DNA from: Candidatus Saccharimonas sp.
Lineage (GTDB): Bacteria > Patescibacteriota > Saccharimonadia > Saccharimonadales > EFPC-124
Reading direction: 5' to 3'
Assembly: GCA_035478375.1 (NCBI GenBank)
Contig: DATIJQ010000035.1
Span: 21,087-45,086 of the forward strand
DNA length: 24,000 bases
Part shown: piece by piece, positions 4,351 to 22,456 of the stretch
How positions within the stretch are numbered: position 1 is the stretch's first letter
Layout: every line of letters begins with the position of its first letter
Notes under the pieces: generated by a model
The model's database searches: none
What the model was told of the DNA's origin: nothing
What the model saw: the letters and a program-made list of their open reading frames with translations, nothing else
Position numbers and translations under genes: made by a program

Positions 4351-5640
4351 TTAGGCGTTGGCGATGCGGGCGAGTGCTTCGCGAAGTTCGATCGCAGTTG
4401 GCCGGTTGGCCGGTTCCTTGTGCAGGCATTGTGCGACAATATCGCGGATAAACGCCGGCACACGTTGGAGGTCTGGCGTGGCAGTGACGACGTTCATCAA
4501 AATGATTCCATCGCTGCTGCCGACAAATGGTGGCTCACCGGTGGCTCCAAAGCAAATGACGGCACCAAGCGAAAAAACATCGCCCGCCAGCGACAGCTGC
4601 TGCGGATGGTTTATGTGCTCTGGCGCCATGTATGCCGGCGTGCCGACAATCACGTTGGTGCCCGTAATACGTGTGCCATCAGTCTTGCGCGCAATGCCAA
4701 GGTCGATGAGTTTTGGCCCATCAGTCGGCGGCACAAGAATGTTGGACGGCTTAATATCGCGGTGCACAATATTGTGTTCGTGCAGCTGCTTGAGCGCCTC
4801 CACCAAACCGCGGAAAAACGTCAGCAACATGTCGTCTGGCAGGCCGTTGGGGTAACGCTTAGCTACAAAACTTTGGAGGGACAGCGCGTCCACAAAGTCT
4901 ATAGCCATCCACGGTCTTTCGCCGAATTGGCACGTGTCAACCTGCACAAGATACGGCGATGACGGGAGTGAGGCGTGAACTTGCATCTCGCGCCTAAAAC
5001 GGCTCCTTAGCTCCTCGGCAGCTTCGGCATCGTGCGTATTGAGCAGCATTTTGACAGCGAATAACTTACCGTTACGACCCCGAACTAAAAACACAATGCC
5101 CATGCCACCAACACCAAGTCGCGTTACGACTTTGTAGGGACCGATTTTGCGTGGGTCGCCTGGGAGCGTGCCGTGTCGCTCTGCCCTGGGCCAATTTGTT
5201 GTCGCCAAAGCTACCGTGGGCTGCTCGTCGGTTACGATGTGTCTCCGTTTGTAGAGACATCTAATAAGCCACGCTGTGCACGCCAGTAGCGCTGCGACAA
5301 TGACAAGCCTTAGCAAAATTGCCTCGGCGATGTCACGATCGGCCGTTGACGAATCTGGCGCTGGCTGCACCGATGCGGTCGTCGGTGGCGTGGATGTAGT
5401 GCTACTTGGTACGTCGCTCGTTGTTTCGGATGTCGACGATGCGGTTGTTGTGGTTGTCTCTGTCGTTGTGCTGGGTACTGTGTACGTTCCGCCCGGCCAG
5501 GTGTTATAGAAGATGATGCTTTGCCTCGCGGGCAGTGCAGGCTGCACCGGCGCCGACGCCGTGGGGCGTGTCTCCACTAGTAACAGCGTTGGTACTCCAA
5601 GCCCAATGACCAGAAACATTCCAGCCAACCAGCGCTTCAC
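4351..5640 (-). CDS. Membrane Ser/Thr protein kinase 2 (paralog of kinase 1) with a short Thr/Ser-rich exo-segment
   Basis: Kinase motifs: LGVGGMGIV, FAVKML, HRDIKPSNIL, DLGIA, GTPAYMAPE. The N-terminus MKRWLAGMFLVIGLG is an N-terminal hydrophobic signal/anchor segment. It is followed by low-complexity TTTETTTTTASSTSETTSDVPSSTTSTPPTTAS and a second TM helix (IVAALLACTAWLI). GTG start preceded by GGGAGCCGCG. Confidence 0.9.
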   Translation of the reverse strand: MKRWLAGMFLVIGLGVPTLLLVETRPTASAPVQPALPARQSIIFYNTWPGGTYTVPSTTTETTTTTASSTSETTSDVPSSTTSTPPTTASVQPAPDSSTADRDIAEAILLRLVIVAALLACTAWLIRCLYKRRHIVTDEQPTVALATTNWPRAERHGTLPGDPRKIGPYKVVTRLGVGGMGIVFLVRGRNGKLFAVKMLLNTHDAEAAEELRSRFRREMQVHASLPSSPYLVQVDTCQFGERPWMAIDFVDALSLQSFVAKRYPNGLPDDMLLTFFRGLVEALKQLHEHNIVHRDIKPSNILVPPTDGPKLIDLGIARKTDGTRITGTNVIVGTPAYMAPEHINHPQQLSLAGDVFSLGAVICFGATGEPPFVGSSDGIILMNVVTATPDLQRVPAFIRDIVAQCLHKEPANRPTAIELREALARIANA

Positions 5641-6531: not shown

Positions 6532-8415
6532 CTAGTTGACGCAATTGTTTGGGGCAATGGTCGATGCAGTTACAAAGTCATCGTTCACCGTTACAATTGT
6601 GTTGCCTGACCACGTTTGATGGTTACAAGTGTTAACCGAATCATCGGGTCCATATGCCCACGTGCCTTGTGCCCAGGCATTGCCGCTTATAATCCAATTG
6701 GTCGCGGTACCTACGTTATCCCACCACAGCGCGGTTGTGTAGCCACCGCCCATGAACAGATTATTTTGTAGCGTTACGGCATAGGCGTTGTTGCCGGTTC
6801 CGTTGTAGGGTGAACCCAGGTAAATCGCCGAGTTGCCAGTCATTTGACCTTGGTAAAATGCGCGCGAATCAAACGTGTTATGTATAAACGTGAGGTGCCC
6901 GCATGGTCCGCCACATTGGTCCTGTACGCCGTCAGAGTGGAAACCGTCACTCCCTACCACCGAAGGCGGCTGGTAACATGGCTGTACCAACGAATCGGTG
7001 ACCGTAACATTGTCGCCAACAACATCAATACCATCTTGGTGGCCACGCAGCGCAACGCGCGTGGCGGTAAAATCGTGGGCGTTGAGGCTTGGCCAGCCCT
7101 GCGTGTCGCATGCCGCCGGACCAATGGTCGAATCGCTAATCGTAAACGACGTATTTGCCGGCAGGCTGTCGTTGTCTACGTGGCCGTCAATAAGCGAATT
7201 TTTAATGACAATGCCAGTGGCTTGAATAACCAAATCACCCTTAATATGCCATGAATCAATAACCTGTCCCGGCGTGTTAGCGTAAAAGTCTGTATTGACA
7301 GTACGGCTAAATGATGTGTTTGGCGGGACGCCGGTGCAGCTCGCATTTGGGTATTTTGGCAGCGTACATGACGATGGCGGCGTGCCACCACCACCGTTAT
7401 TCCCACCACCGCCGTTTGAACCGTCGCCACCATTGGTGCCACCGCCAGGTGATGTGTTCCCACCACCACCGCCTCCGCCGCCATTGCCGCCCTGGCTAGC
7501 ACCACCGCCATTTGGTTGAGATGGATTCCCCTGCCCTGCCGGATTATTCTGGAACACTACATACTTGCCGCCAGATGCAGCATTATTACTAATAATTGTT
7601 GCGCCGCCAGAAAGTTTGCCTGTCTCGGCCTCAAACACTGGCGGACTACTCGCTGCTGCCACGATTCCAACTGTTATGGCCGCCAAAGTTATAATTGCCC
7701 AAATTACAACAATAAGCTTGTGGTGTTGCGCAAAATGCAGCAGTCGTCTGGCTAAACCGGCATTTTTGTGCAAGCCGCTCCCCACAACCACCCCATGTTG
7801 CTGCGCCACTGTTGTAAGGGACCGCATGAACGATTTATACAAACGATATATAAAAATGCCGGCGCCCACAACAACAAGCACGCATACAATAACCACCCAC
7901 CAATTTGGTGCGTAAGGCCAAGCGACTGTTATTTTTGTGGCAGATTGCTGTGCTTTTTGTGCTGGTGTGCTTTGTAAACAGTTGTCGCCAAAGCCGGTTG
8001 GTACGCAGGTTGGATCGTTAGTGAGGAGTATTCTGTCGACGCCAGTGCCCGCCTCGCGGCCAGCAATAGTTATGGCATGGCTGCCGGTAGCAAGGTTATA
8101 TGTTATTGATTTAGTGGGCTGGCCATCGCTAAAGTTTACCCATATAAAGTCACTGCCGGTTTTGGTGTCGTTAACAGTTACAGGGCATTGGTCGTCAATT
8201 TGTATAGAGACACTGTTGCTGTCGGCTTTTGGCGCCCACATGCGGACCCATACGGTGTATTTGCCAGGCTCGGCAACGCCAATCGTGCCGGTGCTCTGCC
8301 CTTTATCGGTCGCCATAGGCGAACAGGCGGCTACAGTTGGTTTGGCTGGCAAAAGTAGTACGCTACACGACAAGAACAACAGCATCAAGGACGGCAAAAA
8401 GCTAAAGCGTCGCAT
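6532..8415 (-). CDS. Secreted/membrane surface protein: signal peptide, CBM-like beta-sandwich, two TM helices, Gly-rich spacer, right-handed beta-helix domain
   Basis: Signal peptide MRRFSFLPSLMLLFLSCSVLLLPAKPTVAA. The CBM-like pattern is GKYTVWVRMWAP...SVSIQIDD...FIWVNF...GSHAITIAGREAGTGVDRILL. The TM helices are WWVVIVCVLVVVGAGIFIY and LIVVIWAIITLAAITVGIVAAA. The segment FEAETGKLSGGA...ASGGKYVVF is followed by poly-Gly/Asn. The C-terminal repeats with HSDGVQ and NN.F.GGGY are typical of pectate-lyase-fold proteins. Confidence 0.85.
   Translation of the reverse strand: MRRFSFLPSLMLLFLSCSVLLLPAKPTVAACSPMATDKGQSTGTIGVAEPGKYTVWVRMWAPKADSNSVSIQIDDQCPVTVNDTKTGSDFIWVNFSDGQPTKSITYNLATGSHAITIAGREAGTGVDRILLTNDPTCVPTGFGDNCLQSTPAQKAQQSATKITVAWPYAPNWWVVIVCVLVVVGAGIFIYRLYKSFMRSLTTVAQQHGVVVGSGLHKNAGLARRLLHFAQHHKLIVVIWAIITLAAITVGIVAAASSPPVFEAETGKLSGGATIISNNAASGGKYVVFQNNPAGQGNPSQPNGGGASQGGNGGGGGGGGNTSPGGGTNGGDGSNGGGGNNGGGGTPPSSCTLPKYPNASCTGVPPNTSFSRTVNTDFYANTPGQVIDSWHIKGDLVIQATGIVIKNSLIDGHVDNDSLPANTSFTISDSTIGPAACDTQGWPSLNAHDFTATRVALRGHQDGIDVVGDNVTVTDSLVQPCYQPPSVVGSDGFHSDGVQDQCGGPCGHLTFIHNTFDSRAFYQGQMTGNSAIYLGSPYNGTGNNAYAVTLQNNLFMGGGYTTALWWDNVGTATNWIISGNAWAQGTWAYGPDDSVNTCNHQTWSGNTIVTVNDDFVTASTIAPNNCVN
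7380..7510 (-). repeat. Low-complexity (ccacc/gccgcc) tract encoding the Gly/Asn-rich spacer
   Basis: The plus strand is runs of ccaccaccaccg/ccgccgcc, which translate on the minus strand to GGNGGGGGGGGNTSPGGGTNGGDGSNGGGGNNGGGG. This composition is prone to slippage. Confidence 0.6.
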
Positions 8416-11344: not shown

Positions 11345-11709
11345 CTAGGAGATGTCTGTCATGCGCCTTAATGCTACAGCATCGACGGTGTTATTGTCAT
11401 AATTTTGTACATGGGTAACTATTGCAAGTAGCGTTATGGTCTCACCGCTAACTCCAAACCACATTCTCGGCCATTGTTAGGCTTAAGACCACTTTTCGGC
11501 ACCAAAACTTCTACTTTCCAAATTGTCCAAGTAGTGTCTGCTCGCACTCTATGTATTTTGCCTGGAGCTATCACTTCCTCAGGGGTTTGAGGATGAAATT
11601 GAACTGCGAGAAGCCGCTTGATTCGTTCTACGCCGTCACCGACCTGCAGATATTTTTTGCAGATCTTCTTTAGTTCAGGAACGAACTCATCATGCTGTTG
11701 CCACAACAT
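11345..11709 (-). pseudogene. RelE/ParE-fold toxin partner of the Panacea antitoxin, apparently disrupted by a frameshift near 11440-11480
   Basis: Frame A starts at ATG 11709, reads MLWQQHDEFVPELKKICKKY...IWKVEVLVPKSGLKPNNGRECGLELAVRP and stops at 11434. The -1 frame continues RMWFGVSGETITLLAIVTHVQNYDNN... to TAG at 11345. The joined reading (...KSGLKPNNGRRMWFGVSGETITLLAIVTH) matches the RelE pattern ...SSGYRLVYQVIDEKVVVFVISVGKR. The start overlaps the antitoxin stop by 20 nt. Confidence 0.45.
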
Positions 11710-12202
11710 CACTGAAGTCAGTCCCACGGTAAAAGGCTAGTTCGTATACAATCTCGTCATTTGGTTCCGTACCAACATATGGTGCCTCGGCATGGGTTAA
11801 GTCCTCGAGCTGTTTACCCGTCAACCTACCATATTTGTTAGCAACATGCTGCAATATTTGCAAATCCTCGGCATCGAAAACGCTCAAGTCGGCCTTTCTC
11901 TTTGCAGAATAGACACTGGTCGGTAGATAGCCGGGGGAATCCTCTTGCTCGTCAACAGCCAGAAGCCCTTCGCGCTGCATGGAATCGATAATTTCTGAGA
12001 AAGATTGGGGAACGGGCCCCATCTTCCAGGCCTTGTACGTATCCCCTGTAATACTCTTTTCAGACTCTTTGTACTCGTAACGGTCAAAGTCTACATAATA
12101 TAAAAGTTTAGCAAGCTTTTTTTTGCCACGCAAAGAACCCCCTAGTGACTCACACAGGTAGAGAATTGTGTTTTCGTACTTATCCTTTGCTATCTTGCTC
12201 AT
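11690..12202 (-). CDS. Panacea-domain (DUF4065, SocA/PanA-like) type II antitoxin
   Basis: KKLAKLLYYVDFDRYEYKESEKSITGDTYKAWKMGPVPQSF matches the DUF4065 signature KLxKLLYYxD...ITG..Y.AW..GPVP. The C-terminal ...LTHAEAPYVGTEPNDEIVYELAFYR is also typical of the family. Confidence 0.8.
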   Translation of the reverse strand: MSKIAKDKYENTILYLCESLGGSLRGKKKLAKLLYYVDFDRYEYKESEKSITGDTYKAWKMGPVPQSFSEIIDSMQREGLLAVDEQEDSPGYLPTSVYSAKRKADLSVFDAEDLQILQHVANKYGRLTGKQLEDLTHAEAPYVGTEPNDEIVYELAFYRGTDFSDVVATA

Positions 12203-12472
12203 GACTAAAATTATACAACAGTTTCAACATAAAGTACACTGCTTATGGTTGTAGTCAAACAGGCTCAGCTGCTTAGATGTAATACAAGAACTCCGGATTG
12301 TACCGGAGTTCGAGAAAATATTGTTGGTTCGAAATGGTGAGCCAACGGGGACCTTCGGCGAACTATTTTTGGGATGGGTTGGAACGATTGGATGAAGGAA
12401 ATGGGGAACGACGAAACGATAGCTGGAACCCATTACTAACCTCTACGTAGCCCAACATCACAAAACATTATC

Positions 12473-13048
12473 TCACTTTTTCTTTTCCGCCACTAACCTT
12501 GCCACCATATACCGCTCTGGTTCGGTCTTCCCTTCTGGGATAATCCAACTGCTGTAAGTCTCTTCATAGCTAGTGATGTGCCAACTTTTGTACAATTCTT
12601 TTAACCTTCCAGATGGAAAAAGGTACGGTCGTGTGCCCGGCAGGTTACCATCAGTAAAAGCCGTCACAATGTTCGTGCCTTGCGGCTTTGTCCATTCTTG
12701 CATTTTGGCGATGGTCGGGGCAATGTCTTGTTCTGGTAAAAAGTGGAGCACCATGAGGCACAGAATAGCATCGAATTGATCTTTTGGTTGGTAATTGCGA
12801 ACGTCGGCTTGCCGAGTGGTTATTTTAAGGTTTCCTCTTGCAGCTGTAGCCTGTAGCGTATTTAAGGCGATAGCATCTGTATCTATAGCCGTTACCTCCC
12901 AGCCTAAGTGCACCAAGTAAAGTGCATTGCGACCAGCATACGAGCCAATGTCCAAGGCCCGACCGGGTGGTATGTTAGCTAAGGCGTTTTTGACGAGTGG
13001 GGTCGGTTGGGTGTAGTCGGTGAATTGCGTGGAAGTGTTGGTTTTCAT
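12473..13048 (-). CDS. tehB: TehB-like SAM-dependent methyltransferase (start moved to ATG 13048)
   Basis: ALDIGSYAGRNALYLVHLGWEVTAIDTD...FDAILCLMVLHFL...GTNIVTAF...RLKELYKSWHITSYEE...ERYMVARLVAEKK is colinear with E. coli TehB as remembered. The 28-codon extension in the ORF track would run through the terminator at 13081-13114. Confidence 0.8.
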   Translation of the reverse strand: MKTNTSTQFTDYTQPTPLVKNALANIPPGRALDIGSYAGRNALYLVHLGWEVTAIDTDAIALNTLQATAARGNLKITTRQADVRNYQPKDQFDAILCLMVLHFLPEQDIAPTIAKMQEWTKPQGTNIVTAFTDGNLPGTRPYLFPSGRLKELYKSWHITSYEETYSSWIIPEGKTEPERYMVARLVAEKKK

Positions 13049-13080
13049 TAGTACTATTATGGCCGGTGTGAGTAAGAATG

Positions 13081-13114
13081 AAAAGCCCCTCCACCCCGTT
13101 GCCGGGATGGAGGG
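13081..13114 (-). terminator. Strong rho-independent terminator ending the ycaO-precursor transcript
   Basis: The minus strand reads CCCTCCATCCCG-GCAA-CGGGGTGGAGGG (12 bp including one G-U pair), followed by GCTTTTCATTCTT. Confidence 0.75.
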
Positions 13115-13180
13115 TTGTGTCATGCGACACACCTCTACAAGAGAGGCTTGAGGAACACTCGCTGAGCGAGCACCGACCTC

Positions 13181-13294
13181 CTACAGGAGGATGTCGGTGC
13201 AGCCGCCGCAGCTGTTGGAGCCGCCGGCCGGCGCGCCCGTCGTCTCGATGACGTCCGTGCGTTCCGTGACCTCGATGATCAGACTCTGATCCAT
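13181..13294 (-). CDS. RiPP precursor peptide (37 aa): MDQSLIIEVTERTDVIETTGAPAGGSNSCGGCTDILL
   Basis: Hand-translated smORF that falls below the ORF-track cutoff. The ATG at 13294 is preceded by GAGAGGA with a 5-nt spacer and begins 14 nt after the ycaO stop. An acidic leader-like N-terminal half is followed by a Gly/Cys/Ser/Thr-rich C-terminal half. The terminator follows 67 nt downstream. Confidence 0.65.
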   Translation of the reverse strand: MDQSLIIEVTERTDVIETTGAPAGGSNSCGGCTDILL

Positions 13295-13308
13295 GAGGGT
13301 CCTCTCGT

Positions 13309-14727
13309 TCAGGCGAAGGGTTGCGTTTTGTACCCCGCGGCTGTTTTGCGAAGCGACCGGAATTGGCCGCTCGCGATACTTGTTGGAGTACGAAAAAGCC
13401 TCTCCATACCAAGCGCTTCCATCATATAGCCAAACCCTATCGGGGTCAACCCTTCGATCAACGAGCGAACTACATACAGGCCAGTTGTGTCCCTGCCAGC
13501 ACGATTGAGCTCAGTTGCATACCATGAAGTGCCTAGCCGATTAAGTGCTGTTTGCATCCCGATGACGTCTGTGGGGCCGGCGGGTATACCAGTTGCTTCA
13601 ATTAGGTCTTCACCTATAAGCAACTCTACCTCCGAATGATTTTCCGGTTTGTCATACCAGAATTGATGGTCCATAACATCCCGGATGTTTTCCATAGCAT
13701 TCACACTTGGCGTCTCAATATTACAGAAGGTGACATTGAGTTCCACCTCCTGTAAAGCTTTGTCCATCGCCACAATAGGCAAAGAATGCGAGGCCATGCC
13801 AAGAATGAGCCTTGGGTACGATTCTGCTTCTCGCCTGAGGATTACTAACACAACTGGCGCTAGCTCAAGAGTGAGGTTCAAAAACGTGCATGTAAACCCA
13901 AAGCTTTCTAGGCGCAAGACGCGACTCTTGAACTCGTCAGGTGGTGCTATGCGCTCGCGTTGCACACCCCAGAACCAATGAACCATAAGAGCGTCGCGCT
14001 CTATGAGTTCAAAAGCAGAGCTAAGCAATGCTACCTCAAAAGACGGGTGACAGGCAACTCCACTCGACGTCGCTGAAGTTACACGTTTACTTCCGGTTCG
14101 ATCTGGGTAGCATACTATCTCTAGAGGCAATCTAAATGCCTCATTCGTCGCCACATTCTCAACTCTGGCCCACTTTCCACTCGGCTCGCGCCCATATGGG
14201 AAATCGGCTCGCGCCAACTGCCACTCGCTATAACGCACAAACCTATGTATGTCCAGCGCAGGGACTGAGTCCTCCAGATCAACGAGCAAATCTGTATTGA
14301 CATTCGCGTCGCAACTGAGTCGTTCGTAGACTTCGGCAGCAGCTTTGAGCAAGGCTAGGTACTTCGTGTCTGCCTGGCCGAAACCTTTTGTGCGAGGCTC
14401 CGCTTTTAGCATGTAGCCTTCGCGAGGCAGGGCGAATTCTGGCCTAGTTGAGCCTTTTCGCACGACATAGGTTTCGACATTACGCTCGCCGAAATATCGC
14501 TCAAGACGACGAAGCGCGCCAATCTCATCGCCATCCTCGCTGACAACTACTCCGTACTGAGCAAGTGTACGAATTGCTGGCGTCTCTTGGACCCATTCGT
14601 TCTGGAGTTGCTTAAGCAGCGATTCTGAATCACCCCGGAGCCGCAAGCTCTTGTCTGGCGTTTCAAGGACCAAAGCGTCGCCATCATATCTCCACGAACA
14701 AAAAGGTGCTAGACGATAATGCATCAT
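13309..14727 (-). CDS. YcaO-domain protein (ATP-dependent cyclodehydratase type) with a roughly 95-aa N-terminal extension
   Basis: TKGFGQADTKYLALLKAAAEVYERLS matches the GKG.t...A..SA..EaiER.s pattern. SSGVACHPSFEVALLSSAFELIERDALMVHWF contains the canonical E..ERD motif. AGGAG RBS before the ATGATG start. Confidence 0.9.
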   Translation of the reverse strand: MMHYRLAPFCSWRYDGDALVLETPDKSLRLRGDSESLLKQLQNEWVQETPAIRTLAQYGVVVSEDGDEIGALRRLERYFGERNVETYVVRKGSTRPEFALPREGYMLKAEPRTKGFGQADTKYLALLKAAAEVYERLSCDANVNTDLLVDLEDSVPALDIHRFVRYSEWQLARADFPYGREPSGKWARVENVATNEAFRLPLEIVCYPDRTGSKRVTSATSSGVACHPSFEVALLSSAFELIERDALMVHWFWGVQRERIAPPDEFKSRVLRLESFGFTCTFLNLTLELAPVVLVILRREAESYPRLILGMASHSLPIVAMDKALQEVELNVTFCNIETPSVNAMENIRDVMDHQFWYDKPENHSEVELLIGEDLIEATGIPAGPTDVIGMQTALNRLGTSWYATELNRAGRDTTGLYVVRSLIEGLTPIGFGYMMEALGMERLFRTPTSIASGQFRSLRKTAAGYKTQPFA

Positions 14728-14806
14728 CTCCCGCTCCTAACGAAACGATAAGCTGGCCATTAAGGACTCGGATAATATTAGCACGTATGGATTTGACTGA
14801 ACAAAT

Positions 14807-15439
14807 TTACTGCGGCGTAGTAAATTTATATAAAAGGACAGACTGCCCTCCTTCAGGAAAAGGAGGTGTATAATCTTGGAACCAATATGGCCGGAAGCCG
14901 CGTGTACCATAAAAATCCAGAGTCTCAGTATTACTCTCGCTGAGTTCCGTGGCAAGTGTAATAACCTGTACGCCATTATTATGAGCTCTTTGCATACTGC
15001 GATTAAGTGCTGTGCTAGCGTAACCTTTACCTCGTGTCCTTTCGCCCGGCCTTGTAACAAGTTCACTAATGTATAAACGACGATCCCCTATTTCTTGGCC
15101 ACTATCGCTGTGGACGATTTCGCGGAAAGTTTTGCCAGCACTTAAAGTACCTCCGAGAAGGATATTAACAATTTCCCCGGTTCTGGAGTCGACTATTGCT
15201 TCGCTGTAATTCCACATCTCATCTATTCCTTGTCCAAAACGCTTTTGTTCCTTTATCATTTCTGCTGTGTAATACGGACCCGCCCCCTCTATAAAACTAC
15301 AGAGCCATAGAAGTTCTTCAGCATGCCCCTCAACGAAAGCTTGATCTACATGAACGCACTCTAAACCATCTTGTAATCGATCGACACTGCCAGTCGGAAT
15401 TTCAGATTGTGTTAGCGGTCTTTGCTCACGTTCAGTCAT
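14807..15439 (-). CDS. GNAT family N-acetyltransferase (start moved to ATG 15439)
   Basis: The acetyl-CoA motif A is ELVTRPGERTRGKGYASTALNRSMQRAHNNG (R..G.G/A pattern), followed by ETLDFYGTRGFRP. GGAG lies 10 nt upstream of ATG 15439. Confidence 0.8.
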   Translation of the reverse strand: MTEREQRPLTQSEIPTGSVDRLQDGLECVHVDQAFVEGHAEELLWLCSFIEGAGPYYTAEMIKEQKRFGQGIDEMWNYSEAIVDSRTGEIVNILLGGTLSAGKTFREIVHSDSGQEIGDRRLYISELVTRPGERTRGKGYASTALNRSMQRAHNNGVQVITLATELSESNTETLDFYGTRGFRPYWFQDYTPPFPEGGQSVLLYKFTTPQ

Positions 15440-15497
15440 TCTAGGGGCTCCATTAATGGTATTATATATTAAGTCCAACTACAGAGAAGAGGACGTC
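15440..15497. promoter_or_regulatory. 58-bp AT-rich divergent promoter region between the GNAT-ycaO operon and the dehydrogenase gene
   Basis: ggtattatatattaag gives TATAAT on the minus strand (15461-15466) and TATATT on the plus strand (15464-15469). GAGGA precedes ATG 15498. The -35 elements are unclear. Confidence 0.4.
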
Positions 15498-16442
15498 ATG
15501 GATCGCGATTCGCGTCCAGTCATGGTTGCCTGCTTAGGCAAGGATAAACAAGGTTACTGCTTTAAAACTTCCAGCGAGCGCATAGGTATACAGGAGAGGC
15601 TTGCGAACATGCTTCTACCTGTACTACATGAATCTACCGGCCATAGGACCATAGACCAATTGGCTAACGAAGATTTAGACGAGGAGATTCTTCTGACGCT
15701 ATTTGGCCAGTTTGAAGCCCTCGGCCTATGCTACGAGGCCCATAATGTCGCACTTTACGGTCACCGAGCAGCTTGTTATCCGGATCCGCTACGTCTCTAC
15801 CCGGGAGACGAAGCGGTGGAACAGCTGATGCAACTACCCTCAGACCGAGATGGTACGTTCATAAACGTACAATGCTCTGAGGACCCAAAAGCAAATATGC
15901 TAATTCGCAGAACTCAGCGCGCATTCAATGAACGGCCCATAAGTCTCAATGAAATGTCGCAGATTGCTTTCGCCAGTTATGGTCTAACTGAGGCGTGGGG
16001 CAATATCGCTCGCAGAACTGTTCCAAGCGCTGGCGCGATGTACCCCCTGCAGCTCGACTATGTTGTGCGTCGTGGGGAAGGCATGTTGGCCGGCGTATAC
16101 CGCTGGGCTAAGCAGGCAAACGGCTTCATTAGATACCGTGAAGTCGATGACCATATGCTTGAGGCATGTTTTATTGGCCAGGAATGGATGACTAGTGCAG
16201 TCATCCAGGTTATCAGTTTCGACATCGCGAGGAGTGCTGCGAAATATTCTTCAAGAGCACATCGTTTTGCGTTGCTGGAGGCTGGCCATGCCGCCCAAAA
16301 CGCGATCCTCAAGGCTACATCACTAGGCTTGGCCGCATGGGAGTACGGTGGCTACAATGATGCGGCGATGATGAAACTTGTCGAACTCGACGACCCAACA
16401 TGTGGCGTCGCAACCGTACTGTTTTACGGCCACACCGGCTAA
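15498..16442 (+). CDS. SagB-type FMN-dependent dehydrogenase (nitroreductase fold) of azole-forming RiPP pathways
   Basis: Motifs read directly: RRTQRAFNERPISLNEMSQIAF, VPSAGAMYPLQLDYVV, and RFALLEAGHAAQNAILKATSLGLAAWEYGGYNDAAM. These match the SagB-type patterns RRS.R.F...pl, PSAGalYPlE and lEaGh..QN..L.A..lGLg....GgF.D. The start is set at ATG 15498 because the track extension overlaps the GNAT gene. Confidence 0.85.
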   Translation: MDRDSRPVMVACLGKDKQGYCFKTSSERIGIQERLANMLLPVLHESTGHRTIDQLANEDLDEEILLTLFGQFEALGLCYEAHNVALYGHRAACYPDPLRLYPGDEAVEQLMQLPSDRDGTFINVQCSEDPKANMLIRRTQRAFNERPISLNEMSQIAFASYGLTEAWGNIARRTVPSAGAMYPLQLDYVVRRGEGMLAGVYRWAKQANGFIRYREVDDHMLEACFIGQEWMTSAVIQVISFDIARSAAKYSSRAHRFALLEAGHAAQNAILKATSLGLAAWEYGGYNDAAMMKLVELDDPTCGVATVLFYGHTG

Positions 16443-16482
16443 GACTGATCGTCCCGACCCTTCAATGATGGTAGGTGATACA

Positions 16483-16512
16483 ATGGGCCCATCCCGAGGC
16501 CCATTTAATTTA
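16483..16512 (+). terminator. Rho-independent terminator of the dehydrogenase gene
   Basis: ATGGGCC-catcccga-GGCCCAT forms a 7-bp stem, followed by TTAATTTAT. Confidence 0.65.
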
Positions 16513-16833: not shown

Positions 16834-17421
16834 TTAATGATGAAAGAATGAAGTTAGCGATCCGCCCCATTGTGACCAAATTGTCGCAACGCTCGCAGCA
16901 TTCGTTAGAGCGCCAGCCAAAGCGGTAAGCACCATTTTAACCACGCTTTTTTGTCGCTGCGATTGCGGTAAAGTCGCCTGTTCTGCTAGAAAAGCTAACT
17001 GTTCAATAACTTGCTGTTTTTCAGTCTCTTTAATTTCTCGAGTGGCTATAACTGTTTCTGTAAGTAGCCTTATCGCTTTAGCAACATCTTCATCGCCATT
17101 GTTCTGAATGTCGTCCATGGCAACGTCAATGCGCCCCACTTGTGCCGTATTGATCGCGCCGATTACACTACGATCAACATTAATGTGGTTGTATGTTACC
17201 GACGCGCTGTTGATTCCAGACTGTGGAATTTGAATGCGCGGCCCACGTGGGGGTAGTCCAAAAGTAGCATAGATCTGGTCGCTTAGATAATTTATCATGG
17301 CCGCATTTGTAGCCATGGCCGCTTGAGCATTTTGCGCAACCATGTTGTAATGCTCCACGCAAAGTAAACTGCCGTTCTGCATTTGATAAAAGGCGGCGCG
17401 ACTGCATTGGCTGCAATGCAT
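16834..17421 (-). CDS. Hypothetical protein (195 aa) translationally coupled to the Fic gene
   Basis: Its ATG shares one base with the Fic stop codon (TAATG at 17423-17419). It has an N-terminal Cys/His cluster (CSQCS...LCVEH), a central helical region and a hydrophobic C-terminus. I recognise no family. Confidence 0.7.
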   Translation of the reverse strand: MHCSQCSRAAFYQMQNGSLLCVEHYNMVAQNAQAAMATNAAMINYLSDQIYATFGLPPRGPRIQIPQSGINSASVTYNHINVDRSVIGAINTAQVGRIDVAMDDIQNNGDEDVAKAIRLLTETVIATREIKETEKQQVIEQLAFLAEQATLPQSQRQKSVVKMVLTALAGALTNAASVATIWSQWGGSLTSFFHH

Positions 17422-18563
17422 TAAACACCTCCCCCATTGGCGGTAAATAGCCGAATATAGTTTTGGTAGGCAAATTGCCGCCCGTACGTTGCTGCTTCAT
17501 CCGTAGGCTGAAGAATGCCTAGATTGACGAACTTCTTAATAAGCTGATTTGCAGCTGGGCGGGAGAGGCCGGTGATTTTTTCGGCAGCAGCCACGTCAAC
17601 AATTGGCTGGCTATACAAACCCTTGAGTAACTTCACCGCAGTGGGCGCCTGCTTGCCGCCAAGGGCATGGACGATAGTCATGTCTTGCTCGCGTATTGTA
17701 ATTATGTGCTTCGAGACATCAGTTGCTTCGCGAGCGACCTCGGCAACACCCTCCAAGAAAAACTCAACCCACTCATTAACTTCGCCTTTGTTATGGTAGG
17801 CGGAAAGTCGATCGAAATAGGTGTCTCGGTGCCGCTTAAAATATTCAGATAGATAAAGAATAGGGTACTCGAGCACCTTTTGGCGACACAAATACATAGT
17901 AATCAAAAGCCGCCCCGTGCGGCCGTTACCGTCCAAGAACGGGTGTATGGTTTCAAACTGGGCATGCATGAGCGCTGCATTGATAAGCGCTGGGTAGGAC
18001 TGTTTTTTGTTAAGAAAATTTTCGAAGTCACTGAGCACCCTGCCCAGTTCATGCACCGGTGGCGGAACGAAATCGGCATTGTCAGGCCGTGTGCCGCCGA
18101 TCCAGTTCTGTGTTTTGCGGATTTCACCTGGAGTCTTGCCCACACCTTCGGCGGTTTCCGCCATCAACTGCTCGTGCAGCTCGCGGATTACGCGCAGTAT
18201 TAGCGGCATTGACTTAAGTCGACTCAAGCCATAGTTAACAGCCTTTACGTAATGTAAGATGTTTTCTACGTCACGAGGTACACCTTCAGTAATATTGAGG
18301 TCAGCCTTCAATGAGTCATGCATAGTCGCTTTAGTACCTTCGATGTTGCTCGAAAGAGTAGCTTCTTTGCGGACGTACATATAAATAAAGAAATCAATGT
18401 CCGGAATAAGCTGAGCGATGCCGTCCAACTTACCGAGCGCCAGCGTGGCATCCGCAGCAAGAAGTTGGGTTTGTGACCTAAAAACAAGCGGCGTTGTGGG
18501 CGGAAAAGCATCGGGGATAAATGCCTTGAAGCCCGCAGGTTGCGTTACAAATTTACCAATCAC
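17421..18563 (-). CDS. Fic/DOC family protein (AMPylase type) with an N-terminal inhibitory motif and a C-terminal winged-helix domain
   Basis: The Fic motif HPFLDGNGRTGR fits HxFx(D/E)GNGRxxR. LSSNIEGT fits the auto-inhibitory motif (S/T)xxxE(G/N). The C-terminal ITGLSRPAANQLIKKFVNLGILQ looks like a wHTH. GTG start with AAGGA upstream. Confidence 0.9.
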   Translation of the reverse strand: MIGKFVTQPAGFKAFIPDAFPPTTPLVFRSQTQLLAADATLALGKLDGIAQLIPDIDFFIYMYVRKEATLSSNIEGTKATMHDSLKADLNITEGVPRDVENILHYVKAVNYGLSRLKSMPLILRVIRELHEQLMAETAEGVGKTPGEIRKTQNWIGGTRPDNADFVPPPVHELGRVLSDFENFLNKKQSYPALINAALMHAQFETIHPFLDGNGRTGRLLITMYLCRQKVLEYPILYLSEYFKRHRDTYFDRLSAYHNKGEVNEWVEFFLEGVAEVAREATDVSKHIITIREQDMTIVHALGGKQAPTAVKLLKGLYSQPIVDVAAAEKITGLSRPAANQLIKKFVNLGILQPTDEAATYGRQFAYQNYIRLFTANGGGV

Positions 18564-20549: not shown

Positions 20550-20933
20550 CTATGCGGCGGTTTGCAAACTTTGTATAATTTCGATTAATTTGCGCGGCGT
20601 TATGTCGGCTTTAATTAAATAACCGTCGGCTTTGTTTTGCATGGCTTGGCGCGATTCTTCGTCTTGGCTAAAATTAGTGAGTACCAAAATGCGCGAGTTT
20701 GGCACTTTGTCTTGGCCGCCGCGCAGAGTTTGCAAGATTTCTGTGCCGTGTGTTTCGGGCAACAAAATATCTAACAAAATGAGGTCGAATTTTTGGGCCA
20801 GCGCCGCCTTTAACCCTTCGGCGCCATTGCTAATAAGGGTAACGTCGTAGCCGGCTTTACGCAAACTGCGGGCGTACATGTCGCCAATAAATACGTCGTC
20901 TTCGATGCATAAGATTGTTCTGATTGCTGCCAT
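20550..20933 (-). CDS. Receiver-only (CheY-like) response regulator
   Basis: ILCIEDD acidic pocket, phospho-acceptor context DLILLDILLP, and conserved T (VLT) and K (YLIK). At 127 aa there is no output domain. GGAGG RBS. Confidence 0.9.
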   Translation of the reverse strand: MAAIRTILCIEDDVFIGDMYARSLRKAGYDVTLISNGAEGLKAALAQKFDLILLDILLPETHGTEILQTLRGGQDKVPNSRILVLTNFSQDEESRQAMQNKADGYLIKADITPRKLIEIIQSLQTAA

Positions 20934-20938
20934 GGCTA

Positions 20939-22456
20939 CTACCTCCGGTACATTGCGTGGTTTTTTATCCAGCCTTCGCTGCGCTGTACAATATCTTTAT
21001 TATTGCCGCTGGCCACCTTTTGCGCAACGGTTGCGTAAATAGGCAGTGTAAAACCAAAGGTTGTCCCCTGCCCTTCTTTGCTGCGGACCCAGATGCTGCC
21101 ACCGTGGCTTTCGACAATAGCTTTGCAAATGTACAGACCGAGGCCGGTGCCGGCAACAGCTTCGCGCGAGCGGTGTGAGCGGTAAAATTTGTTGAACAAG
21201 TTGCCGACGACCGATTCTGGCATGCCGATGCCGTTGTCGGCAACGGTGACCTCAACAAAATCTTCTTTGCGGCGGGCGCCAATGACCACTTCGCCGTCTT
21301 CGTGGCTATATTTTATGGCGTTGTCGATGAGGTTAATGATGACTTCGCTAAGGCTGGTGCGATCGGCGGCGATGGTTGGTAAATCTTGCGGAATTTGGAA
21401 GGTTAATTTGCGACGCTGCGTGCTGGCGCGCAAGGCAAGGTCCGGCACAAGGCTTTTAAATACGTCTAATAAATTTTCTTCTTGAAGGTGGATCGTAAAC
21501 CGGCTGCGGTCGTAGCGCGAGACGTTCAAAATGTTGTTTATGTAACCGCTGAGTCGCTCCGCCGATACCTGCAGGCGGTCAAGCAAAATTTGTTGGTCGT
21601 CCGAAAGCTGGGTGGTGAGTTCGTCTTTTAACACCTCTAAATAGCCGCGGATAACAGTAATTGGTCCGCGCAGTTCGTGAGCTGCCAGCGCAATAAAATC
21701 CATGTTGTCTTGGTCGGGCGCATAGGCCACTGTGCGGTCAAGGGCGACCAGCACGACTTCGATACCGGCTTTGGCGTTTTTTTGGTAGTGCCCGGCGACG
21801 TCAAAAATGCGTTGGCCGTCTTCGCCGGTTGGTTTGTCGGCGACGCGTAACCATAAGTGATCGTCGCGCACTTTATTAGCTTGGCAGTCGGCAATCCATT
21901 TGGCCAGGTCGTCGTTTTGTTCAAAAATAAGCGAAAGCTGCTGCACATTATCGCTGTTGGCGGTGACTGGCGAGGCTGAGTTGGCGTACACAATGGCGCC
22001 GGTGGCGTCCATGGCAACGACGCCGCAAGGCAGGCCGTCGGTCAGCACGCGGAAAAAATCCCCGGTTTGCGTGGTTTCGTTTGTGCTTGGTCCAGCTGCG
22101 GCTAATTCAAAAATAGTCTTGACCATGGCTTTGAGGCCGGATTGTTCGTACTGCTTTATATTTATATCAGGTGGTGGCGTTACAACTGGGTCGCTCGAGA
22201 CATGCGCCACAGCTTGGCTCATCACCCGCAGCGGCGCACTCGTGAGTCGCAAAATAAGCAAAATAACCAGTACGTTTACCACGACGCCAGCCAACACGCC
22301 AACAATAAACGTTGGTACAACAGCAAAACCAAAGCTATGCCAGGCAATCCAGGCGAGTGCGCTGGCCAGCAAAGCGCCCGTCACCTGCAGGGTAACGACT
22401 TGCGTGGTGGTTTTACGGTAGTATGTGGTAAAAAATTCGTGGACTTTTATTGCCAT
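20939..22456 (-). CDS. Sensor histidine kinase (2 TM, sensor region, HisKA, HATPase_c)
   Basis: H-box LAAHELRGPITVIRGYLEVL, N-box INLIDNAIKYS, G1 DNGIGMPE, and G2 GTGLGLYICKAIVESHGGSIWV. Two N-terminal TM helices. The start overlaps the upstream gene by 10 nt. Confidence 0.9.
   Translation of the reverse strand: MAIKVHEFFTTYYRKTTTQVVTLQVTGALLASALAWIAWHSFGFAVVPTFIVGVLAGVVVNVLVILLILRLTSAPLRVMSQAVAHVSSDPVVTPPPDINIKQYEQSGLKAMVKTIFELAAAGPSTNETTQTGDFFRVLTDGLPCGVVAMDATGAIVYANSASPVTANSDNVQQLSLIFEQNDDLAKWIADCQANKVRDDHLWLRVADKPTGEDGQRIFDVAGHYQKNAKAGIEVVLVALDRTVAYAPDQDNMDFIALAAHELRGPITVIRGYLEVLKDELTTQLSDDQQILLDRLQVSAERLSGYINNILNVSRYDRSRFTIHLQEENLLDVFKSLVPDLALRASTQRRKLTFQIPQDLPTIAADRTSLSEVIINLIDNAIKYSHEDGEVVIGARRKEDFVEVTVADNGIGMPESVVGNLFNKFYRSHRSREAVAGTGLGLYICKAIVESHGGSIWVRSKEGQGTTFGFTLPIYATVAQKVASGNNKDIVQRSEGWIKNHAMYRR

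What the first reader, a model, noticed from the sequence alone, without database searches (positions are those of the whole stretch)
13181..13294. Unannotated 37-aa precursor smORF: MDQSLIIEVTERTDVIETTGAPAGGSNSCGGCTDILL
The six-frame track (60 aa and above) misses this smORF, and a spurious 145-aa ORF in another frame (12975-13412) masks it. By hand translation, ATG 13294 has a GAGAGGA SD 5 nt upstream and TAG falls at 13183-13181.

The architecture is that of a precursor. An acidic, beta-prone leader (DQSLIIEVTERTDVIETT) is followed by a Gly-rich hinge ending in AGG, which resembles a double-glycine cleavage site. The 12-residue core, SNSCGGCTDILL, has 2 Cys, 2 Ser and 1 Thr as potential heterocyclisation sites. 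The C-G-G-C spacing would give two thiazol(in)es separated by Gly-Gly.
Basis: seen in the sequence. Interest (0 to 1): 0.8.

Follow-up and report, generated by a model that had tools for sequence, protein, structure and literature searches.

The report
Azole-peptide precursor gene in Saccharibacteria
The 37-codon gene is real and conserved, and most likely encodes the precursor of a small thiazole/oxazole-modified peptide made by the neighbouring YcaO and dehydrogenase genes of a soil Saccharibacteria genome; it is a new example of a known kind of natural-product cluster, not a new kind.

Summary
ATG 13294 to TAG 13181 (minus strand) encodes MDQSLIIEVTERTDVIETTGAPAGGSNSCGGCTDILL, with GAGAGGA 5 nt upstream, 14 nt after the ycaO stop.

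The ORF is not a chance one. Every related locus with sequence beyond ycaO (YcaO 35-87% identical) has a small ORF with a ribosome-binding site 11-29 nt after ycaO. These ORFs share the leader motif [LF]-x-[IL]-x-V-x-[PEA]-x-[ST]-[DN] and a variable Gly/Ser/Cys-rich tail. The motif occurs nowhere else in the fetched DNA.

The conserved block is a SagB-type dehydrogenase, a GNAT, YcaO, the smORF and a TehB-like methyltransferase. The source is Candidatus Saccharimonas.

The best reading is a precursor of a linear azole-containing peptide (LAP/TOMM). No E1-like or ThiF-like partner is present. Instead, YcaO carries a fused N-terminal domain with a weak RRE-like fold match.

The "double-glycine" cleavage site is not supported: the motif is not conserved and no C39 transporter is present.

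Three extras were seen:
- The smORF is the best-conserved DNA of the cluster, even at silent sites.
- It is followed by a conserved terminator.
- It is preceded by a promoter-like site embedded in ycaO.

LAP clusters in other candidate-phyla bacteria are already published. I rate this a new member of a known kind, of moderate interest. No chemistry was tested.

The parts
13181..13294 (-). Precursor peptide gene (37 codons + TAG): MDQSLIIEVTERTDVIETTGAPAGGSNSCGGCTDILL
   Evidence: Orthologous smORFs lie after ycaO in L012, L013, L014, L015, L030, L032-L039 and L043.
13300..13306 (-). Shine-Dalgarno GAGAGGA, 5 nt before the ATG
   Evidence: A purine-rich SD lies 5-8 nt before the start in all 13 sequences shown, the window included.
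13253..13282 (-). Codons 5-14 (LIIEVTERTD): the conserved leader motif, the proposed recognition sequence
   Evidence: It is the only conserved block of the family alignment. The motif regex hits once per related locus and nowhere else.
13184..13219 (-). Codons 26-37 (SNSCGGCTDILL): the likely modified region, with Ser26, Ser28, Cys29, Cys32 and Thr33. The true N-terminal boundary of the core is unknown.
   Evidence: The sequence is identical in L012. In L030 only silent changes occur, plus loss of the last Leu. All family members have at least one Cys in the C-terminal part and none in the leader.
13077..13114 (-). Intrinsic-terminator-like hairpin (12-bp stem, 9 G-C pairs, loop of 4) followed by GCTTTTCATT
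   Evidence: The hairpin is kept in L012 and L030 with two compensatory pair changes. G+C-rich hairpins, in most loci followed by a T-run, follow the smORF in the other loci that extend far enough (read by eye).
13421..13449 (-). Promoter-like site TTGACC-17-TATGAT inside the 3' end of ycaO, about 155 nt before the smORF start
   Evidence: The same site, at -155 to -165, is present in 9 of 12 sequences (the window and 11 loci), including all with YcaO at least 41% identical. The site overlaps conserved codons, so its conservation is only suggestive.
13309..14727 (-). YcaO cyclodehydratase (472 aa); YcaO domain at residues 117-452
   Evidence: Pfam YcaO E=1.9e-29. TIGR03604 SagD-type 136 bits, below the cut-off of 219. 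AF2 model pLDDT 85. The best fold matches are LynD, MJ1094, MusD and McbD.
14485..14727 (-). N-terminal domain of YcaO (residues 1-81): four short strands followed by three helices, RRE-like, the proposed leader-binding domain
   Evidence: The Foldseek E-values are weak (0.04-1), but the hits are mostly RRE-containing proteins: ThcOx, the PbtF RRE, LynD, TbiB1, McbB, MccB and SuiB. There is no sequence match to PqqD.
14807..15478 (-). GNAT acetyltransferase (start codon uncertain), a candidate tailoring or immunity enzyme
   Evidence: Pfam Acetyltransf_1 E=3.8e-6. It is kept at the same place in L012 and L030.
15498..16442 (+). SagB-type FMN dehydrogenase. The longest ORF starts at 15456, but the conserved start is ATG 15498.
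   Evidence: TIGR03605 90.6 bits, above the cut-off of 78.4. It aligns to McbC including the Lys-Tyr motif. The start comes from the family alignment.
12473..13048 (-). TehB-like SAM methyltransferase. The likely start is ATG 13048; the longer GTG ORF would run through the terminator.
   Evidence: Pfam TehB E=6.7e-29. It is kept after the smORF in L012 and L030.

Best explanation
The smORF is the translated precursor of a small linear azole-containing peptide (LAP/TOMM type) made by a five-gene block in a soil Candidatus Saccharimonas genome.

Proposed mechanism:
1. (Inferred) The gene is transcribed as a short message from a promoter embedded in the ycaO 3' end to a hairpin terminator just after the stop codon.
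2. (Inferred from fold and from conservation) The leader segment L5-D14, a strand-like alternating hydrophobic motif, docks on the RRE-like N-terminal domain fused directly to YcaO. This domain takes the place of the separate E1-like or ThiF-like partner used by most azoline synthetases.
3. (Inferred from family membership) The YcaO domain uses ATP to cyclodehydrate Cys29 and Cys32, and possibly Ser26, Ser28 and Thr33, to azolines. The SagB-type FMN dehydrogenase then oxidises them to azoles. Ser28-Cys29 and Cys32-Thr33 could give two fused bis-azoles separated by Gly-Gly.
4. (Speculative) The leader is removed by a protease not encoded here; distant relatives have a DUF2268 predicted protease next to the precursor. 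The GNAT and the TehB-like methyltransferase tailor the product, for example by N-terminal acetylation as in goadsporin or by carboxyl/Asp methylation, or they protect the producer.

The product is most likely a secreted competition or antibiotic peptide. Its target is unknown.
For: - The ORF and its signals are as described.
- The neighbours are YcaO, SagB, GNAT and TehB-like genes.
- The source is Candidatus Saccharimonas.
- The smORF position, SD and leader motif are conserved across YcaO relatives of 35-87% identity.
- Selection acts on the peptide: omega is 0.36 overall, and the 17 shared codons from G20 on show 0 non-synonymous against 3 synonymous changes versus L030.
- The block SagB..methyltransferase (window 12464-16490) is the only part shared with both L012 and L030 apart from a relocated two-component system.
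- The YcaO motifs (E132/E135, E240/E243/R244) are invariant.
- The YcaO model matches the LynD heterocyclase best.
- The N-terminal domain gives RRE-type fold hits.
- The terminator carries compensatory changes.
- The promoter-like site is present in 9 of 12 sequences, the window among them.
- LAP clusters of YcaO + nitroreductase + peptidase with an adjacent precursor have been reported in other CPR phyla (PMC7298704).
Against: - No chemistry, expression or peptide data exist.
- YcaO scores below the curated TIGR03604 cut-off (136 against 219), and its best PDB sequence match is a thioamide-forming archaeal YcaO.
- There is no E1-like/ThiF-like partner, protease, exporter or recognisable immunity gene in the window.
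- The RRE assignment rests on weak Foldseek E-values with no sequence support.
- The C-terminus is GYxxQPFA rather than the classical Pro-rich PxPxP-type end seen in fused relatives.
- dN/dS counts are small: 5 synonymous and 6 non-synonymous changes.
Confidence: 0.8

Rival explanations
1. The peptide is a genuine YcaO substrate, but the chemistry is not azole formation. It could be backbone thioamidation, amidine/macroamidine formation or another ATP-dependent amide activation, with the nitroreductase-fold protein doing something else.
For: The best PDB sequence hit of the YcaO profile is the thioamide-forming MJ1094. The TOMM model score is below its cut-off. The C-terminal motif is atypical. 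No E1-like partner is present.
Against: No TfuA gene is present. The adjacent dehydrogenase passes the SagB-family cut-off and keeps the McbC Lys-Tyr motif. The SagB gene co-occurs with this YcaO in nearly all related loci. Every precursor has Cys in a Gly/Ser-rich tail. TIGR03604 is by far the best NCBIfam hit, at 1e-39 against 1e-8. The best fold match is the LynD heterocyclase.
Confidence: 0.08
2. The cluster is a decaying or incomplete remnant. The peptide is made but not matured, because the partner protein, protease and exporter are missing.
For: No partner, protease or transporter gene lies in the window. Mobile-looking islands flank the block: Fic/DOC, and a SocA/Panacea pair.
Against: All five genes are intact in three lineages that have diverged to 62-70% nucleotide identity, and ycaO omega is about 0.09-0.12. 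The smORF is the most conserved segment. The N-terminal domain is conserved across the family.
Confidence: 0.07
3. The conserved element is mainly an RNA, such as a structured leader or attenuator for the downstream methyltransferase, and the ORF is incidental.
For: Silent sites are unusually conserved: third-position identity is 31/37 against 226/471 in ycaO. G+C is 66% against 52% for the window. The predicted fold is strong (-120.5 kcal/mol, z = -4.9).
Against: In distant loci the nucleotide sequence has changed completely, yet the ORF, SD, start codon, leader amino-acid motif and Cys-containing tail persist. Most of those loci have no methyltransferase downstream. Base-pair covariation inside the ORF is minimal with three sequences.
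Confidence: 0.03

Closest known systems
LAP clusters of candidate-phyla-radiation bacteria (Sharrar et al. 2020, mBio, PMC7298704)
   Same: A YcaO next to a nitroreductase-type dehydrogenase, with a putative precursor gene beside YcaO, in CPR genomes. Distant members of the present family (L035-L038, L042) also carry a predicted peptidase (DUF2268), as in that description.
   Different: That survey listed Microgenomates, Parcubacteria, Peregrinibacteria and Katanobacteria, not Saccharibacteria. The window's cluster lacks the peptidase and has a GNAT and a TehB-like methyltransferase instead. Its precursor is much shorter (37 aa against 84 aa).
Microcin B17 (McbA with the McbBCD synthetase)
   Same: A Gly/Ser/Cys-rich core, a YcaO (McbD) plus a SagB-type dehydrogenase (McbC; the Lys-Tyr motif aligns), and adjacent Ser-Cys / Cys-Ser(Thr) pairs that give bis-azoles in MccB17 (my own knowledge). 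Members such as L035-L038 (…GGSGQGGSQGGSS…C) look MccB17-like.
   Different: MccB17 needs the separate E1-like scaffold McbB; here an RRE-like domain is fused to YcaO. There are no McbEFG-type export or immunity genes, and the core is at most about 12-18 residues. YcaO sequence similarity is low: McbD is only fold hit number 40.
Cyanobactin heterocyclases LynD/TruD/PatD
   Same: They are the best structural match of the YcaO model (4v1t, E=2e-18). They also have an N-terminal RRE on the same polypeptide as YcaO, and the N-terminal domain model hits the LynD N-terminus.
   Different: LynD/TruD are about 775-781 aa, with an E1-like domain between the RRE and YcaO (my own knowledge). This protein is 472 aa, with only about 35 residues between the two domains. 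There are no cyanobactin proteases or macrocyclase.
Goadsporin (GodH) and plantazolicin (PznL) tailoring
   Same: These are LAPs whose clusters add an acetyltransferase (goadsporin has an N-terminal acetyl group, PMC5303826) or a SAM methyltransferase (plantazolicin N-terminal dimethylation, my own knowledge).
   Different: No detectable specific homology to GodH or PznL was tested or found. The methyltransferase here is TehB-like. The roles of both enzymes here are unknown.
Bottromycin stand-alone YcaOs
   Same: They act without an E1-like or ThiF-like partner (PMC7136475). The bottromycin pathway also includes an Asp O-methylation.
   Different: I know of no fused RRE in those enzymes (my own knowledge), and the bottromycin precursor has a follower rather than a leader peptide. 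No radical-SAM methyltransferases are present here.

Membership tests
LAP / TOMM (azol(in)e-containing RiPP) cluster | YcaO-domain cyclodehydratase with conserved ATP/Mg-binding acidic motifs | tested here: met
   PF02624 E=1.9e-29. E132/E135 and E240/E243/R244/D245 are invariant in the family. The fold matches LynD and other YcaO structures.
LAP / TOMM (azol(in)e-containing RiPP) cluster | YcaO reaches the curated SagD/TOMM subfamily score (TIGR03604) | tested here: not met
   136.4 bits against a cut-off of 219.25. It is still by far the best NCBIfam hit.
LAP / TOMM (azol(in)e-containing RiPP) cluster | E1-like (TIGR03882) or Ocin-ThiF-like partner protein or domain carrying the RRE | tested here: not met
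   No such gene or domain is found in the window or in related loci. An 81-residue RRE-like domain fused to YcaO may replace it.
LAP / TOMM (azol(in)e-containing RiPP) cluster | SagB-type FMN-dependent azoline dehydrogenase in the cluster | tested here: met
   TIGR03605 90.6 bits against a cut-off of 78.4. It aligns to McbC with the K-Y motif retained, and K263/Y264 are invariant.
LAP / TOMM (azol(in)e-containing RiPP) cluster | Adjacent small precursor with a conserved leader and a Cys/Ser/Thr-rich core | tested here: met
LAP / TOMM (azol(in)e-containing RiPP) cluster | Pro-rich C-terminal PxPxP-type motif of azoline-forming YcaOs | tested here: inconclusive
   The family ends in an invariant GYxxQPFA. 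Classical fused relatives end in P-x-PH(P/F)F(A/I/P). Only the terminal PFA is shared.
LAP / TOMM (azol(in)e-containing RiPP) cluster | Azol(in)e rings actually installed in the peptide | not testable with these tools
   This needs mass spectrometry of the modified peptide.
Double-glycine leader peptides (C39 peptidase-ABC transporter processed) | Conserved Gly-Gly (or GA/GS) at the leader end, plus a C39-domain transporter nearby | tested here: not met
   The GG is not conserved in the family alignment. No ABC transporter or C39 peptidase lies in the window.
YcaO-TfuA thioamidated RiPPs | TfuA gene adjacent to YcaO | tested here: not met
   No TfuA is found in the window or in related loci.
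RiPP recognition element (PqqD-like RRE) | Three-stranded sheet plus three helices (winged helix) that binds the leader as an extra strand | tested here: inconclusive
   The predicted topology is four short strands followed by three helices, pLDDT about 90. Foldseek hits are mostly RRE proteins, but with E of 0.04-1. PF05402 and NCBIfam give no hit. Binding was not tested.

The most novel reading that the evidence does not exclude
This small family defines a minimal, partner-independent azole synthetase. It has about 13 representatives among 1.84 billion protein clusters and, where the organism is named, is found in Saccharibacteria. A roughly 80-residue RRE is fused directly to a YcaO domain with no E1-like or ThiF-like module, and it works with a SagB dehydrogenase that may carry its own RRE-like N-terminus. 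In the window's lineage the system makes an unusually short (about 12-residue) bis-azole peptide that is further acetylated and/or methylated. The precursor is expressed from its own promoter embedded in ycaO and is constrained even at silent sites. The peptide may act in the episymbiotic lifestyle of Saccharibacteria, against hosts or competitors.
Probability: 0.3. Interest if true: 0.6.

Novelty: new member of a known kind. Interest (0 to 1): 0.45.

Why it matters
Saccharibacteria and other candidate-phyla bacteria have tiny genomes and very few known natural-product clusters. A conserved, selected RiPP cluster therefore suggests that these episymbionts invest in chemical interaction with hosts or competitors.

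In practical terms, a 472-aa YcaO with a built-in leader-binding domain, a single dehydrogenase and a 37-aa substrate would be one of the smallest azole-installing systems. That would make it attractive for peptide engineering, if it works without a partner protein. The conserved leader motif gives a simple handle for finding further precursors that gene callers miss.

Tried and rejected
- **Known precursor families.** Pfam and NCBIfam scans of 12 family precursors gave nothing meaningful. One member gave a weak thiocillin-family hit at E=0.002.
- **PqqD/RRE by sequence.** Pfam, NCBIfam and PDB profile searches of the YcaO N-terminal domain found nothing.
- **Big protein search with the precursor alignment.** I did not repeat it, because the YcaO and N-terminal-domain searches already bound the family size.
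- **Shared origin of the two N-terminal domains.** An hhalign comparison of the SagB and YcaO N-terminal domains aligns them in register, but with E=0.012 and probability 3.7%. This is left as a hint only.
- **RNA-element reading.** The predicted structure is strong, but covariation inside the ORF is negligible with three sequences, and coding conservation persists where the nucleotide sequence has diverged. I rejected it as the main explanation.
- **Link to the histidine kinase/response regulator pair.** The pair is orthologous near the cluster in L012 and L030 but relocated in L030, and absent near more distant clusters. This cannot be told apart from plain synteny.
- **More distant YcaO loci.** L040 and L042 showed no recognisable precursor next to ycaO, and L041 only a doubtful one.
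- **Literature.** I found no report of this family or of LAP clusters specifically in Saccharibacteria in the searchable library. That is not proof of absence.

Full report
**1. The observation**

Reverse-strand translation of 13181-13294 gives MDQSLIIEVTERTDVIETTGAPAGGSNSCGGCTDILL followed by TAG. ATG 13294 is the first start codon of that frame. GAGAGGA sits at 13306-13300, 5 nt upstream. The ycaO stop codon (13311-13309) is 14 nt before the ATG.

The 145-aa ORF 12975-13412 that masks the smORF exists. It runs out of frame across the ycaO 3' end, the smORF and the start of the next gene. Its product is Arg/His-rich and low-complexity, and the ORF is not preserved in the closest relatives.

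The peptide is not entirely unseen. The exact sequence is an unnamed called protein in a Logan assembly, and a two-substitution variant is called in JGI/ENA assemblies.

**2. Genomic context**

Reading the minus strand around the smORF, the genes are:
- a SagB-family nitroreductase-fold dehydrogenase on the plus strand (15498-16442). It scores 90.6 bits on TIGR03605, above the cut-off of 78.4, and aligns to McbC with the Lys-Tyr motif retained;
- a GNAT acetyltransferase (14807-15478);
- a 472-aa YcaO (13309-14727). It matches Pfam YcaO at E=1.9e-29, and its best NCBIfam hit is the SagD/TOMM model at E=1e-39, though below the curated cut-off;
- the smORF;
- a TehB-like SAM methyltransferase (12473-13048).

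The YcaO is 100% identical to a protein of a Candidatus Saccharimonas MAG. No ABC transporter, protease, TfuA, or E1-like/ThiF-like gene was recognised anywhere in the 24 kb, although several ORFs match no Pfam family.

Comparison with the two closest loci shows which genes belong together. In L012 (YcaO 87% identical) and L030 (71%), the block from SagB to the methyltransferase (window 12464-16490) is the shared unit and the flanks differ.

**3. Is the smORF a gene?**

YcaO relatives of 35-87% identity were collected and their contigs fetched. Every locus of this set that extends beyond ycaO has a small ORF 11-29 nt after the ycaO stop, preceded by a purine-rich ribosome-binding site.

The peptides are 36-87 aa long. 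They share one conserved block near the N-terminus, [LF]-x-[IL]-x-V-x-[PEA]-x-[ST]-[DN] (LIIEVTERTD in the window). This is followed by a variable Thr/Ala/Pro linker and a Gly/Ser/Cys-rich tail with at least one Cys. A regular expression for the block hits exactly once in the window and once in each of 13 related loci, always in this smORF. It never hits in any of the six frames of the 26 other loci held at that time.

Between the window and L030 the peptide is 89% identical, against 71% for YcaO. The 17 shared codons from G20 on show three silent and no replacement changes, and overall omega is 0.36 on small counts.

**4. Unexpected features of the gene**

*Conservation at silent sites.* The smORF is the best-conserved DNA of the cluster. 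It is 97% and 88% identical to L012 and L030, whereas the four enzyme genes are 80-86% and 62-70% identical. That is higher than any 111-nt window inside ycaO. Third-codon positions are 31/37 identical, against 226/471 in ycaO. Its G+C content is 66% against 52% for the window. The region folds strongly (z = -4.9), which might explain the silent-site constraint, but three sequences give almost no covariation inside the ORF. I leave this unexplained. Selection on mRNA stability or translation of a short, highly expressed message is my best guess.

*Terminator.* A 12-bp G+C-rich hairpin with a T-run (13114-13077) follows the stop codon. It is retained in L030 through two compensatory pair changes. 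Comparable hairpins, in most loci followed by a T-run, follow the smORF in the other loci that extend far enough.

*Promoter-like site.* TTGACC-17-TATGAT lies inside the ycaO 3' end (13449-13421). An equivalent site is found at -155 to -165 in 9 of the 12 sequences compared, the window among them, with the Leu codon always TTG. Because it overlaps conserved codons, this is suggestive only.

Together these features fit the common RiPP arrangement of a separately and strongly expressed precursor transcript.

**5. The enzyme that should act on it**

An AlphaFold model of the YcaO (pLDDT 85) matches the cyanobactin heterocyclase LynD best. Archaeal YcaOs, MusD and McbD follow.

Residues 1-81 form a separate, confidently predicted domain of four short strands followed by three helices. 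Foldseek E-values for this domain are weak (0.04-1). The top hits that are not ribosomal proteins are nevertheless almost all RiPP leader-binding (RRE) domains: ThcOx, the PbtF RRE, the LynD N-terminus, TbiB1, McbB, MccB and SuiB. No sequence method sees PqqD.

A profile of this domain finds only 15 proteins among 1.84 billion cluster representatives. Thirteen of them carry it at the N-terminus, either of 440-491-aa YcaO proteins or of short fragments.

The family therefore looks like a direct RRE-YcaO fusion without the E1-like module that LAP cyclodehydratases normally use (background: PMC7470986). Its C-terminus is an invariant GYxxQPFA. That resembles only the last residues of the Pro-rich end of classical fused relatives.

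The SagB protein has a conserved 100-residue N-terminal extension. It aligns in register with the YcaO N-domain, but not significantly.

**6. Most likely mechanism**

- Shown: the gene, its signals, its conservation and its enzyme neighbours.
- Inferred: the leader motif binds the fused RRE-like domain; YcaO cyclodehydrates Cys29 and Cys32 (and possibly Ser26, Ser28 and Thr33); SagB oxidises the azolines to azoles.
- Speculative: an unlinked protease removes the leader, and the GNAT and methyltransferase tailor the product or protect the producer. Distant relatives carry a DUF2268 predicted protease next to the precursor. N-terminal acetylation has a precedent in goadsporin (PMC5303826).

The leader/core boundary is unknown.

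The adjacent pairs Ser28-Cys29 and Cys32-Thr33 could give two bis-azoles, as in microcin B17. This point rests on my own knowledge and was not tested.

**7. Rival readings**

- Non-azole YcaO chemistry is possible. The best PDB sequence hit is a thioamide-forming YcaO, the TOMM score is below its cut-off and the C-terminus is atypical. However, TfuA is absent and a bona fide SagB co-occurs in nearly all related loci.
- A decaying cluster is unlikely, given intact genes under purifying selection in three diverged lineages.
- A purely RNA element is unlikely, because the ORF, its ribosome-binding site and the peptide motif persist where the nucleotide sequence has changed completely.

**8. Comparison with what is known, and novelty**

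LAP clusters made of YcaO, a nitroreductase and a peptidase, with a precursor next to YcaO, were reported in CPR genomes (110 clusters). The phyla listed were Microgenomates, Parcubacteria, Peregrinibacteria and Katanobacteria, not Saccharibacteria (PMC7298704).

The present family fits that kind. The window's lineage differs in lacking the peptidase, in having a GNAT and a TehB-like methyltransferase, and in a very short precursor. Another Saccharimonadales MAG (L001) has an unrelated fused 726-aa YcaO followed by a Gly/Ser/Cys-rich 59-aa smORF, so such clusters recur in this phylum.

I rate the finding a new member of a known kind. The partner-less RRE-YcaO architecture is the part that could raise it to a new variant, if it is confirmed.

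**9. Verdict**

The cleavage-site detail does not. Interest is moderate (0.45): the result is useful for CPR biology and as a possible minimal azole synthetase, but it would not surprise a RiPP specialist.

Noticed in passing
window 13181-13294 versus L012:7432-7545 and L030:7431-7541: The smORF is more conserved at the nucleotide level than any enzyme gene of the cluster. Third-position identity is 31/37 against 226/471 in ycaO. G+C is 66% against 52% for the window. The predicted mRNA fold has z = -4.9. No explanation is established.
   Followed up: partly
window 13421-13449 (-), inside the ycaO 3' end: A sigma-70-like promoter, TTGACC-17-TATGAT, is embedded in the codons for G-L-T-P-I-G-F-G-Y-M-M. 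An equivalent site lies at the same position in 9 of 12 sequences (the window and 11 loci), and the Leu codon is always TTG.
   Followed up: partly
window 15498-15800 (+), SagB residues 15-115 of the long ORF: The SagB dehydrogenase has a conserved N-terminal extension of about 100 residues whose sequence pattern looks strand-then-helix. It aligns in register with the YcaO N-terminal RRE-like domain, but only at hhalign E=0.012 and probability 3.7%. It may be a second, possibly vestigial, RRE.
   Followed up: partly
window 16834-18563 (-): A Fic/DOC-family gene (380 aa, Fic_N + Fic) and an overlapping 195-aa gene of unknown function form an island that is absent from the otherwise collinear locus L012. 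The island lies between the cluster and the histidine kinase/response regulator genes.
   Followed up: partly
window 11434-12202 (-): A SocA/Panacea-domain antitoxin-like gene (170 aa) overlaps the start of a 97-aa ORF. This is probably a toxin-antitoxin pair. It lies in a window-specific stretch (about 10.2-12.4 kb) that has no counterpart in L012.
   Followed up: no
window 20550-22456 (-); L012:409-2312; L030:9514-11464: An orthologous histidine kinase/response regulator pair lies near the cluster in all three close loci (84% and 55% identity). In L030 it is on the other side and in the opposite orientation. This could be regulation of the cluster or plain synteny.
   Followed up: partly
window 248-1873 (-), 4351-5640 (-), 6532-8415 (-): There are two Ser/Thr protein kinase genes, plus a 627-aa predicted secreted or membrane protein with a long Gly/Asn-rich low-complexity stretch and no family match.
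   Followed up: no
L001:4861-7246: Another Saccharimonadales MAG carries a 726-aa fused YcaO protein, only 29% identical to the window's. It is followed directly by a 59-aa Gly/Ser/Cys-rich smORF (MQAQDSIRVKIRPYEHAQQSGSGSSTSGCAGSGSCGHSGNSRGG...), which looks like an independent LAP-type cluster in the same phylum.
   Followed up: no
L035:7625-8308, L037:4051-4728, L038:2858-3535, L042:3281-3997: In the distant members of the family a DUF2268 predicted Zn-protease gene lies next to the cluster: convergent to the precursor gene in L035-L038, and upstream of the nitroreductase gene in L042. This makes it a candidate leader peptidase. The window, L012 and L030 lack it.
   Followed up: no
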